Source: Terriglobia bacterium (GTDB taxonomy: Bacteria; Acidobacteriota; Terriglobia; 20CM-2-55-15). From it: 64,000 nucleotides of DNA. Where the stretch lies: assembly GCA_963664115.2 (NCBI GenBank), contig CAXWPJ010000004.1, forward strand, positions 1 to 64,000. Direction: 5' to 3'. The notes under the pieces were generated by a model. That model had not been told where the DNA came from, searched no databases, and worked only from the letters and a program-made list of their open reading frames with translations. Positions 220 to 3,995 of the stretch are shown piece by piece; position 1 is the first letter of the stretch, and every line of letters begins with the position of its first letter. Position numbers and translations under genes: made by a program.

Positions 220-1323
220 GACCTTGTTGCATGGATCATCCCGAAGGATGCCTTATCATCGTGTTTTTCAACACTGGGGATAACCTAGATGCCACATAAG
301 TTCAACGCAGCGCGACGGCACAAGTTTGATAAGGCGCAGTACCGGGCGATCCACTGGGCAGAATATAACGAGAGCCTGCGCCAGCGGGGTGATCTGACGA
401 TTTGGGTCAGTGATGAGGCTCAAAGTGTGTGGAGTGCGCCGCGCCGCACGTCACGGGGTGGCCAGTGGAGATACTCGGATCTGGCGATCGAGACATGCCT
501 GACGCTGCGCACGGCGTATCGGCTGGGGTTGCGACAAACGCAGGGGCTGATGGGTTCGATCGGTACGCTCATGGGTCTGGATATACGGGTGCCGGATTAC
601 TCCACACTGTCGCGTCGCGCAAACGGTTTGAGCATCGCTCAGGCGGTGAGGCAAGGCGGGTCTGTGCCTGTCCATCTGGTGGTGGACAGTACCGGCCTCA
701 AGATCTTCGGAGAAGGAGAATGGCTCGCGCAGAAGCATAAAACCAGGGGAATACGCCGCCGCTGGCGCAAACTCCACCTCGGACTGGACCTGGCCAGCGG
801 CGCGATTGTTTGCGCCAATCTGACTCACGATGACGTTGGAGACAGCACCGCCTTACCCGGGCTCCTGGATCAACTCGATGCCCCGGTCACGGGCTTTCTG
901 GCTGACGGTGCCTATGATGGAGCGGCTACACGGGATCTGCTGAGGGAACGGTATGGGGAGACCCTGGATGTGGTTATACCGCCGCCAAAGAACGCAGTGA
1001 CCCGACCGCAATCGGCGCGGGATCCAACCGTTCGGGATCGCCATATTGCCCAGATCCGCAGCAACGGCCGCATGGCCTGGCAAGTGGCCACAGGGTACAA
1101 CCAGCGCAGCCGGATAGAAACACAGATCGGCCGTTGGAAGGGTGTCATCGGCCCCAAGCTCAAATCCCGCAGCTTCTCCAGGCAGATCACGGAGATCCAG
1201 GTCGGCCAGAAAGTTCTGAACACAATGACCGCACTCGGACGGCCTGTGTTCGAACGCATCGCCTGACGCTACCGCATGGGAAAGGGCGAATTCCATCTCC
1301 GCCCCGATCCATGCAACAACGCT
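220..1323 (+). mobile_element. IS5-family (IS903-like group) element, copy 1
   Basis: 18-bp imperfect TIRs gaccttgttgcatggatc / gatccatgcaacaacgct; near-identical inverted copy at 30459-31562; no TSD seen. Confidence 0.9.
289..1266 (+). CDS. IS5-family DDE transposase
   Basis: Motifs W.EYN.SL.QRG, VDSTGLK..GEGEW, WRKLHL, ADGAYD, YNQRSRIET. Confidence 0.95.
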   Translation: MPHKFNAARRHKFDKAQYRAIHWAEYNESLRQRGDLTIWVSDEAQSVWSAPRRTSRGGQWRYSDLAIETCLTLRTAYRLGLRQTQGLMGSIGTLMGLDIRVPDYSTLSRRANGLSIAQAVRQGGSVPVHLVVDSTGLKIFGEGEWLAQKHKTRGIRRRWRKLHLGLDLASGAIVCANLTHDDVGDSTALPGLLDQLDAPVTGFLADGAYDGAATRDLLRERYGETLDVVIPPPKNAVTRPQSARDPTVRDRHIAQIRSNGRMAWQVATGYNQRSRIETQIGRWKGVIGPKLKSRSFSRQITEIQVGQKVLNTMTALGRPVFERIA

Positions 1324-2925: not shown

Positions 2926-2938
2926 TCAGTTCCCCTAG

Positions 2939-3047
2939 GAGTCTTGCGCGGCAGAACGTTTTTAGGCCATTAGGTCCACAGTATGTTCTGGGTATACAGC
3001 GCTTAGCGTCGATATGTAGTGCCGCCTTTCTTCTGCCGCGCAGACTC
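2939..3047. mobile_element. 109-bp MITE-like element
   Basis: TIRs gagtct(t)gcgcggcagaa / ttctgccgcgcagactc, flanked on both sides by CTAG (2935-2938, 3048-3051). Confidence 0.7.
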
Positions 3048-3099
3048 CTAGGTCCCCTTCAACGGTGATTATGTACTTGACTCACTATTCTGAAAATCA

Positions 3100-3139
3100 C
3101 CACAACATATTGTGTGGGACGGCTTACAAGATATAGTGG
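3100..3139. promoter_or_regulatory. Pair of NrdR-box-like sites (3100-3115, 3124-3139)
   Basis: ccacaacatattgtgt and ttacaagatatagtgg match all core positions of acaCwAtATaTwGtgt. Confidence 0.6.
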
Positions 3140-3476
3140 TATTGAAAACAAACTGATTGAGGGGCGAAGCTGAAGGCTTCGCCCCTCGGTCACAGCAACA
3201 GCAGAACCAGCTAATGAACTCGAAATCTGTCGCCGTGAAACCCTTTTCGGATGTCCTTGCCCAATACTGGGATACCTTTTCCTCCGACTGGGATGCCCAA
3301 GAAATCGCTCGCTGGCTCCGGTTTGGTTTCCTGTGTCCCCTAGATGCGCTACTCCGCAGGAGACCGAAAAAGCACCGCGTGGTCGCCCATGAGATCAAAG
3401 GCCACATCACTTTCGGCGCACCGACCGCCACGGCGCGTGTCTCTATTTCACCCCCGGATTGGCTCTGACGGAACCA

Positions 3477-3528
3477 CCGCAATATCTTGTGGTTAGCCCG
3501 TTTCATGTGTGACCACCATATGTAGGCT
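3477..3528. promoter_or_regulatory. Pair of NrdR-box-like sites (3477-3492, 3513-3528)
   Basis: ccgcaatatcttgtgg and ccaccatatgtaggct match the core C-A-AT-T-G positions. Confidence 0.55.
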
Positions 3529-3995
3529 AGTCTGGCTGAAAATTGAGTCAAGTGCATAGCCACCCCTTCAACCGGCCCCACAGCCGGCTGAGGGGGCTGA
3601 CTCGTAATATCTGAATCTTTGAAGCATCAGAGCCGGAAGTCCTTCCGGCTCTGCTTCGTTCAACAATGGATTGAGCCGTGTGCATCACAGCATGATCGTT
3701 GGAATAGTGCGACCCGCCCTCTGTTGATGTCTCCTCGAGAGCCGATTCTTCGCGGCCGATTGCTTTGTCTCGCTGCTCCTCGCGTCCTCTTCCCAAATCA
3801 TGATGAGGCATGGTTTAAAGACGCCGGCTGTCGGGTATAGTGTCGGACTGATGTACGGGAAACGAATTGCGAGCGGTTGACCTTGCTCCATATTTCCTGT
3901 CAGTGACTGTGGGTACAAAGCGTAACGTGTTCATCAAGTTTCTGATAGTCTTGCGGAACACGTCATCGAACCTGAATTCACACTCGGGAGGAACC

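What the first reader, a model, noticed from the sequence alone, without database searches (positions are those of the whole stretch)
3064..3564. Transposase-less IS1595-type cassette with NrdR-box-like sites placed symmetrically at both ends
Seen: 21-bp TIRs, a perfect 8-bp TSD (ccttcaac) and four 16-mers fitting the NrdR consensus core. The outer two lie exactly 36 bp inside each terminus (3100 vs 3064; 3528 vs 3564). The cassette also holds a 12-bp-stem hairpin (3159-3187) and an 84-codon ORF (3214-3468) without a clear RBS. Known: NrdR is the ATP/dATP-sensing repressor that binds tandem boxes at ribonucleotide reductase genes, and no nrd gene is in this window. Inference: the host dNTP sensor may bind both transposon ends, gating transposition or cargo expression by nucleotide pools, or the element may spread NrdR operators. 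Within-pair spacings (24 and 36 bp) are not the canonical ~31 bp.
Basis: partly seen in the sequence, partly recalled or inferred. Interest (0 to 1): 0.78.

Follow-up and report, generated by a model that had tools for sequence, protein, structure and literature searches.

The report
Jumping cassette with NrdR-type end boxes
This 501-base jumping gene cassette lacks its own transposase and carries four near-perfect copies of the DNA box of NrdR, the bacterial sensor of DNA building blocks; similar boxes sit inside both ends of many related jumping genes, so the host's nucleotide sensor likely controls them, though binding is untested and the spacing is not the kind NrdR is known to use.

Summary
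Observation confirmed. 3064-3564 is a transposase-less IS1595-family cassette (TIR 18/21, 8-bp TSD). It is single-copy here and has 19 full copies in relative G013 (16 with perfect TSDs), all keeping an 84-codon ORF, a hairpin and four boxes.

With a matrix trained on the host family's nrdJ boxes, the four rank 1, 2, 20 and 82 among 4.89 million positions. All six NrdR-critical bases are invariant across four subfamilies (24/24, against 38/80 in neighbouring DNA).

Autonomous elements with the same TIR lack the boxes. A separate IS1595 clade has one box at position 27 of both ends (25 of 58 both, 26 neither), in 7 of 10 genomes with nrdR and 0 of 9 without.

Against: spacers of 8-9 and 20 bp are off the 15-16 or 26 bp that NrdR binds well, a lone box is not bound in vitro, and the tree-aware left/right test was inconclusive.

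Best reading: NrdR likely bridges left and right boxes, damping the cargo promoter and the ends when dATP is high (0.42; about 0.6 that NrdR binds at all). My paper searches found no report. This scan noted the same motif before on other genomes.

The parts
3056..3063 (.). left 8-bp target-site duplication
   Evidence: identical to 3565-3572
3064..3084 (+). left terminal inverted repeat, IS1595 type
   Evidence: 18/21 to the right end; near-identical ends on IS1595 transposase elements L084 and L147
3100..3115 (.). box A, NrdR-type 16-mer at position 37; its last six bases are the predicted -35 (TTGTGT)
   Evidence: score 20.0, rank 1 in the genome; 6/6 critical bases in 18 of 18 unique copies
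3124..3139 (.). box B, NrdR-type 16-mer; holds the predicted -10 (TATAGT, 3132-3137)
   Evidence: score 14.4, rank 20; 6/6 in 16 of 18. The promoter is inferred from conserved TTGTGT-16/17-TATAGT in most copies; the consensus scan did not call it
3154..3192 (+). 17-bp-stem hairpin in the predicted 5' leader
   Evidence: 5 of its 18 predicted pairs show changes on both sides among 5 copies; no credible Rfam match
3214..3468 (+). 84-codon passenger ORF of unknown function (predicted helix 11-38, basic patch, C-terminal PTxTxRxSxxPPxWL motif)
   Evidence: open and 84 codons in 18 of 18 unique intact copies; 23 family members at E <= 0.01; no Pfam or NCBIfam family; model pLDDT 61, pTM 0.26; overall dN/dS 0.6-1.2
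3477..3492 (.). box C, NrdR-type 16-mer at position 73 from the right end
   Evidence: score 19.0, rank 2; 6/6 in 13 of 18, 5/6 in 5
3513..3528 (.). box D, NrdR-type 16-mer at position 37 from the right end
   Evidence: score 12.5, rank 82; 6/6 in 13 of 18, 5/6 in 5
3544..3564 (-). right terminal inverted repeat
3565..3572 (.). right 8-bp target-site duplication
2939..3047 (.). separate neighbouring 109-bp MITE (CTAG on both sides, IS1182-type ends) with an NrdR-like pair at the canonical 31-bp spacing (2976-2991, 3007-3022)
   Evidence: scores 11.6 and 7.6; about 26 near-full-length matches in 5 relatives; its 1538-bp autonomous partner (3 copies in G000, NF033551 IS1182) has no box at its ends

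Best explanation
This is a transposase-less IS1595-family cassette carrying one small gene, likely moved in trans by a transposase with the same end repeats, and its four end boxes are likely operators of the host repressor NrdR, predicted to be bridged left-to-right. Shown: ends, TSDs, multicopy spread, conserved ORF, hairpin and boxes, and the match to the host's own nrdJ boxes. Inferred: when dATP is high, NrdR tetramers, which need two boxes, cannot use neighbouring boxes well (2.4 and 3.4 helical turns apart), so each would take one box from each end (A with C is 36.0 turns, B with D 37.05 turns; or A with D, B with C). That would close a loop of about 380 bp that covers the predicted cargo promoter and kinks the DNA beside the TIRs. 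When dATP falls during active replication NrdR would let go, so cargo expression and access to the ends would follow the reductase genes. In the related autonomous clade the left box covers the predicted -10 of the transposase promoter, so the same logic would tie transposase supply to dNTP state. Whether bridging blocks or helps end pairing is open; blocking is my guess.
For: Motif: ranks 1, 2, 20 and 82 genome-wide; all four boxes have C4, A6, A8, T9, T11 and G13, the positions named as conserved in PMC13584703; 24/24 of these are invariant across four subfamilies at 68-79% identity, against 27/40 other box positions and 38/80 non-box positions. Host has nrdR and a 31-bp pair at nrdJ. Not tied to the TIR: same-TIR elements L084 (both ends), L147 and L086 (one end each) score below 0 at offsets 27, 37, 62 and 73. 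Second clade: a box at position 27 in 26 of 58 left and 28 of 58 right ends, at most 2 at any other offset, none at that offset in 28 other IS1595; 25 both, 26 neither, 7 one end. Boxes persist across different TIRs (L073, L355, L356) and are missing beside near-identical TIRs (L198, L200); no transposase residue separates the groups (best 67% against 0%). Host link: boxed ends in 7 of 10 genomes with nrdR and 0 of 9 where nrdR was not found (Fisher p 0.003 ignoring kinship); none of 7 recovered reductase promoters of the latter has a box pair. The 27-to-37 shift and the 62/73 asymmetry are each about one helical turn. An unrelated IS1182-type MITE next door carries a 31-bp pair that its parent lacks.
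Against: No binding data. E. coli NrdR does not bind an isolated box (PMC13584703). A 20-bp spacer gave K_D of 122, 12330, 3322 and 2191 nM against best values of 1, 41, 24 and 21 nM; 8-9 bp was not tested (PMC12051234 Table 5). No long-range looping by NrdR in the passages read. In E. coli and P. aeruginosa only reductase operons responded to nrdR loss (10.1101/2025.03.28.645925). Left-right box distances in the autonomous clade show no helical phasing (15 distinct distances, Rayleigh p 0.33-0.89). The tree-aware left/right test was inconclusive (3.7 pairs the same way, 0.3-0.4 opposite, p 0.25). The 9 nrdR-negative genomes hold only about 5 element lineages and their completeness is not given. 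Only 4 of 9 nrdR-positive control promoters showed a clear pair. Three nrdR-positive genomes have box-less elements only. Fixed distances could be plain shared descent. L084 has one weak site (8.1) at position 71 of its left end.
Confidence: 0.42

Rival explanations
1. NrdR binds, but locally: weak occupancy of single boxes or of the mis-spaced neighbouring pairs tunes the cargo or transposase promoter, with no end-to-end bridge.
For: Boxes A and B overlap the predicted -35 and -10; in the autonomous clade the left box holds the predicted -10; residual affinity at poor spacers is reported (PMC12051234); no phasing of left-right distances; the nrdR co-occurrence fits this equally well.
Against: It does not explain why right-end boxes with no gene to control are kept as well as left ones and come and go with them (25 both, 26 neither of 58); isolated boxes were not bound in vitro.
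Confidence: 0.2
2. The boxes are inner binding sites of the IS1595 transposase (for example for its zinc ribbon) that happen to resemble NrdR boxes; they help end pairing.
For: Fixed offset from the TIR at both ends; confined to one transposase clade plus this cassette; spacing wrong for NrdR; three earlier notes of this scan preferred it (unchecked).
Against: Autonomous elements with this cassette's TIR lack boxes; close relatives lose both boxes and keep TIRs and TSDs; at least 7 changes of box state are forced on the tree with no matching residue; offsets differ (27 against 37); none in 9 nrdR-negative genomes; an IS1182-type MITE has a pair that its parent lacks.
Confidence: 0.2
3. Another host protein (an IHF-like bender or an unknown regulator) binds the boxes.
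For: Host bending proteins at IS ends are well known (recalled, for example IHF at IS1); the core CAA-N4-TTG of boxes A and C overlaps the recalled IHF consensus.
Against: The exact IHF consensus occurs in 0 of 58 left and 0 of 58 right ends (1 and 4 with one mismatch); the motif matches the nrdJ boxes at all six positions and follows nrdR presence.
Confidence: 0.1
4. The boxes are relics of a captured reductase promoter and have no function now.
For: Promoter pieces are copied in this genome: an 82-bp stretch of the nrdJ promoter recurs at C9:454680.
Against: 24/24 critical bases kept while 42 of 80 neighbouring positions vary; mirror placement at both ends; non-canonical spacing; a blastn of the element against the genome shows no likeness to the nrdJ promoter.
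Confidence: 0.08

Closest known systems
Mobile insertion cassettes (MICs) and MITEs of IS families; IS1595-family elements with passenger genes (PMC3129680, passages read; Siguier 2009 seen only as its reference)
   Same: TIRs, 8-bp TSD, no transposase, one passenger gene, many copies in a genome that holds a same-TIR IS1595 transposase.
   Different: Four NrdR-type boxes in mirror arrangement that the same-TIR autonomous elements lack; passenger of no known family.
NrdR operators of ribonucleotide reductase operons (PMC9110341 passages; PMC13584703 parts 1-2 of 4; PMC12051234 passages and section 2.5; 10.1101/2025.03.28.645925 passages)
   Same: 16-bp box with C4, A6, A8, T9, T11 and G13; overlap with predicted -35 and -10; host encodes NrdR.
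   Different: No nrd gene; spacers 8-9 and 20 bp in place of 15-16 or 24-27; a second pair downstream of the gene; located on a transposable element.
IS1595 clade that includes ISAcr1, ISRama1 and ISCsp2 (names; the group label 'ISSod11' is recalled)
   Same: Similar TIR core (TATGCACTTGACTC), 8-bp TSD, NrdR-type box at the same offset inside both ends in about half of the members.
   Different: Autonomous; one box per end at position 27; the cassette has two per end at 37 and 62/73, and its TIR tips match another IS1595 subgroup (L084, L147).
Host-factor control of transposition: Dam methylation of IS10/IS50, IHF at IS1 and Tn10, LexA sites on some elements (all recalled); beta-clamp binding by transposases (PMC4549789, search listing only)
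   Same: A host protein site next to the ends or the promoter would tie movement to cell state.
   Different: The signal here would be the dATP/ATP ratio, read by a repressor thought to be specific for reductase genes.

Membership tests
IS1595-family non-autonomous cassette (MIC type) | Terminal inverted repeats shared with an IS1595 transposase element | tested here: met
   L084 (G013) and L147 carry near-identical TIRs and NF033547 transposases
IS1595-family non-autonomous cassette (MIC type) | 8-bp target-site duplication | tested here: met
   window, and 16 of 19 G013 copies perfect, 1 at 7/8, 2 without; family trait in PMC8101967
IS1595-family non-autonomous cassette (MIC type) | No transposase, passenger gene present | tested here: met
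   no transposase hit; 84-codon ORF intact in 18 of 18, with protein relatives
IS1595-family non-autonomous cassette (MIC type) | Mobilised in trans by a cognate transposase | tested here: inconclusive
   dispersed near-identical copies in G013, which holds L084; G000's only IS1595 has a different TIR; transposition itself cannot be run here
Canonical NrdR operator | 16-bp box with C4, A6, A8, T9, T11, G13 | tested here: met
   6/6 in all four window boxes; 60 of 72 boxes 6/6 and 12 at 5/6 across copies
Canonical NrdR operator | Two boxes with a 15-16 (or 24-27) bp spacer | tested here: not met
   spacers 8-9 and 20; no partner site above 2 at 31-32 or 42 bp from any box
Canonical NrdR operator | Upstream of a ribonucleotide reductase operon | tested here: not met
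   reductase is on contig C7; no nrdD found
Canonical NrdR operator | Host encodes NrdR | tested here: met
   G000, G013
Canonical NrdR operator | Overlap with core promoter elements | tested here: inconclusive
   conserved TTGTGT-16/17-TATAGT inside boxes A and B, not called by the scan; no start site data
Canonical NrdR operator | dATP/ATP-dependent binding and repression | not testable with these tools
   needs protein-DNA assays
IHF site | WATCAANNNNTTR (recalled) near the ends | tested here: not met
   0 of 58 exact at either end in the related autonomous clade; by inspection the four cassette boxes lack the WAT part

The most novel reading that the evidence does not exclude
NrdR, held to be specific for reductase genes, is a host regulator of transposable elements. 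IS1595-family elements and their cassettes place its boxes one per end, or two per end out of phase, so that a tetramer must bridge the two transposon ends. This would tie transposase and cargo expression and end availability to the dATP/ATP ratio through a DNA loop that senses both ends being present. Unrelated MITEs (IS1182 type) would have picked up the same operator, perhaps using its two 90-degree kinks to fold a 108-bp element.
Probability: 0.4. Interest if true: 0.86.

Novelty: new variant of a known kind. Interest (0 to 1): 0.7.

Why it matters
If NrdR binds these sites, it widens a regulon that recent work restricts to reductase operons, shows a new binding geometry (end-to-end bridging), and gives a direct route by which nucleotide pools and replication state time transposition. 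It is readily testable: NrdR proteins bind foreign boxes (PMC13584703), and named elements with boxes exist in cultured bacteria (ISAcr1 of Acidiphilium multivorum, L356). If the transposase binds them instead, it defines an unrecognised inner end site for a large IS1595 clade.

Tried and rejected
Siblings in the own genome: none.

Cargo elsewhere: found in 2 of 301 class genomes plus one marginal hit with an internal stop; 0 of 5 further genomes; no confirmed locus in genome contigs or viral contigs by protein; no DNA-pattern hit in viral contigs or metagenome contigs. Records near the window's genome may be left out of those scans. The DNA context of the distant protein relatives (P0013, P0017-P0019, P0063-P0073) could not be fetched. 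The TIR-plus-box pattern matched 4 of 401 phylum genomes, with control matches in 5: uninformative beyond two more position-27 ends.

Archaeal test: 0 of 151 genomes held the clade. Bacteroidota (24 of 251 with a match) gave only one resolved member of the boxed clade.

Protein function: Pfam, NCBIfam and the Atlas were blank; the fold model was too weak for a fold search, which was not run. dN/dS near 1 gives little sign of selection on residues except the C-terminal part against the most distant subfamily (0.35-0.49); a frame stays open by chance in 9-16% of simulations per pair. So a toxin, leader-peptide or anti-repressor role has no support. Rfam: nothing credible.

Helical phasing in the autonomous clade: none. 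A 31-bp partner box inside those elements: none.

Public runs (contigs only): cassette contigs had depth 3-5 against 18-33 on the right flank and 4-12 on the left, and one loose end resembles the empty site; a hint of a polymorphic insertion only. One RNA run holds a contig identical to 3229-3509 and pieces of related subfamilies, with no cover on the flanks next to it; this does not show transcription. No circle junction was seen.

Empty site: G002 is collinear without either element but too diverged (75-84%) to show the single target.

Full report
1. Observation. The element runs 3064-3564 (501 bp) with TIRs matching at 18 of 21 and the 8-bp repeat ccttcaac on both sides. It is single-copy in G000. 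The genome's one IS1595 transposase has a different TIR. nrdR is present; one class I/II reductase lies on another contig; no nrdD was found.

2. The element family. Of 40 relatives, only G013 matched the cassette. There 40 of 47 candidates were scored, giving 19 near-full copies: 16 have a perfect 8-bp TSD, 1 has 7/8 and 2 have none. With the window copy they fall into four subfamilies at 68-79% identity, up to 99.8% within one. All 18 unique intact sequences keep an 84-codon ORF, the hairpin and the four boxes; G013 copies have a clear RBS. The hairpin shows changes on both sides in 5 of 18 predicted pairs among 5 copies. G013 also holds a 1868-bp IS1595 element (L084) with nearly the same TIR, the likely helper; L147 from an unrelated MAG has a near-identical end (21 of the first 22 bases). 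Insertion sites show no fixed relation to host genes, and many lie in long open frames. So this is a selfish, passenger-carrying non-autonomous element (MIC in the sense of PMC3129680, passages read).

3. The passenger. Profile searches found 18 and 23 proteins; the genuine family members are short (35-132 aa) and unnamed apart from one 'hypothetical protein', and several long repetitive hits were ignored as noise. They share a C-terminal PTxTxRxSxxPPxWL motif. There is no Pfam, NCBIfam or Atlas match, and the model is weak. dN/dS is 0.6-1.2 overall and 0.35-0.49 for the C-terminal part against the most distant subfamily. It is likely a real gene under loose constraint; its function is unknown and not needed for the model.

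4. Are the boxes NrdR boxes? nrdJ promoters of the host family carry pairs 31 bp apart. I built a matrix from 36 boxes of 20 of 29 loci, picked with a recalled consensus and a fixed 31-bp spacing; G000's own pair was not in the training set. The cassette's boxes rank 1, 2, 20 and 82 of about 4.89 million positions; the host's nrdJ pair scores 11.1 and 14.4. No shuffle of 1000 had two sites scoring 12 or more. The six positions named as conserved in PMC13584703 (parts 1-2 of 4 read) are all present, and invariant across four subfamilies (24/24) while 38/80 neighbouring positions are.

The geometry is wrong for ordinary binding. Spacers are 8-9 and 20 bp; 20 bp was among the poorest spacers for four NrdR proteins (PMC12051234, passages and section 2.5), and a single box was not bound. 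It therefore fails membership as a canonical operator. Both neighbour spacings are off by the same phase (2.4 and 3.4 turns), whereas A-C (377-378 bp, in 15 of 18 copies) and B-D (389 bp, in 16 of 18) are whole numbers of turns.

5. A wider pattern. A TIR scan of GTDB (29 loci) turned up an autonomous IS1595 with one box at position 27 of both ends. I collected relatives from metagenomes (80 of 109 loci), three phylum samples with hits, the host family and 8 of 55 plasmid records. Both ends were resolved for 117 loci; 113 were anchored and 86 remained below 90% identity. Among the 58 with at least 40% identity to the seed transposase, 26 left and 28 right ends score 10 or more at position 27, at most 2 at any other offset, and none of 28 other IS1595 does so at that offset. 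25 have both boxes, 26 neither and 7 one. The sample is biased towards the boxed seed, and about four rows were mis-anchored. Selecting on one end and reading the other gives C4 28/28, A6 27/28, A8 24/28, T9 26/28, T11 28/28 and G13 28/28, with the central AT the loosest, as in the binding data. On a quick IQ-TREE tree the box-less state changes 13 times, 7 forced by well-supported branches. The independent-pairs test of left against right leaned the same way but could not reach significance, and no residue tracked the boxes.

6. Host link. Of 24 genomes tested for nrdR that hold this clade, 5 were dropped for lack of a readable end (G921, G859, G900, G801, G568). Boxed ends occur in 7 of 10 with nrdR and 0 of 9 without (p 0.003 if kinship is ignored). 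The 9 represent about five element lineages and are of unstated completeness. None of their 7 recovered reductase promoters has a box pair, but only 4 of 9 positive controls do. Same-TIR elements L084, L147 and L086 have no box at the cassette's offsets. The IS1182-type MITE next door carries a 31-bp pair that its parent lacks, in 12 of 20 unique copies. Together these favour a host factor over the transposase, and the motif names NrdR.

7. Mechanism. [quoted passage not shown] One box per end, or two out of phase, would be usable if a tetramer bridges the ends. I therefore commit to end-to-end bridging that represses the cargo (or transposase) promoter and masks the ends when dATP is high: 0.42. 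Local NrdR binding gets 0.2, transposase sites 0.2, another factor 0.1 and relic 0.08. Against bridging: I saw no precedent for NrdR loops in the passages read, and left-right distances in the autonomous clade are not phased, though phasing may be weak over 1 kb (my own knowledge).

8. Literature and earlier notes. Searches for NrdR with IS1595 and NrdR with insertion sequence and terminal inverted repeat returned no paper. Searches listed none on this subject (listings only, apart from the papers cited). The library lacks most subscription papers, including Siguier 2009 and Rodionov and Gelfand 2005, and ISfinder notes were not available. No supplements were read; those of the NrdR motif surveys may list such sites. 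10.1101/2025.03.28.645925 (passages) argues that only reductase operons are regulated. PMC12561309 (passages) reports a circular form for one IS1595 member. This scan has noted NrdR-like boxes at IS1595 ends on at least six other windows, split between NrdR and transposase readings; none matched this sequence. They are unchecked and not counted as support.

9. Verdict. A real, recently active IS1595-family cassette with strongly selected NrdR-type boxes, part of a broader pattern that I could not find in print. The binding partner is likely NrdR but unproven. New variant of a known kind; interest 0.70.

Noticed in passing
window 2939-3047: IS1182-type MITE with CTAG on both sides, 16 bp left of the cassette, with an NrdR-like pair 31 bp apart (11.6 and 7.6; 15.8 and 7.6 in several relatives), at 37 and 26 from its ends. 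The pair holds in 12 of 20 unique copies and is decayed in the others; box 1 has G at position 6. It is one of only 4 pairs at 31 bp with both scores >= 7.5 in the genome. Its 1538-bp parent has no end boxes.
   Followed up: partly
G000:C9:454680-454944: An 82-bp near-copy of the nrdJ promoter with its 31-bp NrdR pair lies upstream of a tRNA-Leu(TAG) and a tRNA-like pseudogene, next to what looks like a transposase end.
   Followed up: partly
L089, L091, L093, L094, L098 (G013): Several cassette copies are interrupted by a transposase like the IS1182 one; in those read through, the break falls at the CTAG in codons 3-5 of the ORF. Others carry small CTAG-type inserts or an IS3-like element (label recalled).
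   Followed up: no
window 2926-3660: Both mobile elements sit between the stop of the gene at 2056-2925 and two hairpins (3576-3595, 3628-3653), so they landed in a predicted 3' untranslated or terminator region; this gene end has a 99% copy at G000:C5:140207.
   Followed up: no
L124, L179-L258: In the boxed IS1595 clade the TIR itself supplies a -35-like TTGACT and the box supplies the -10 (TAGTAT/TAGTGT) 17 bp on, a few bases before the transposase start in many members.
   Followed up: partly
L319-L321, L324, L325: Box-less elements from genomes where nrdR was not found often have a tandem second copy of the TIR where relatives have the box.
   Followed up: no
window 289-1266: Intact transposase with DDE_Tnp_1_5 and DDE_Tnp_1 domains, 1.8 kb upstream; unrelated to the cassette.
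   Followed up: no
G1019, G939, G1107, G975, G1087, G1079, G991, G1003: Eight genomes from the phylum sample of G304 that carry this IS clade gave no nrdR match; the seven reductase promoters recovered have no box pair.
   Followed up: partly
G000:C9:381304-381354: Two NrdR-like 16-mers 35 bp apart (13.3, 10.5) in a single-copy promoter region of a 272-aa gene.
   Followed up: no
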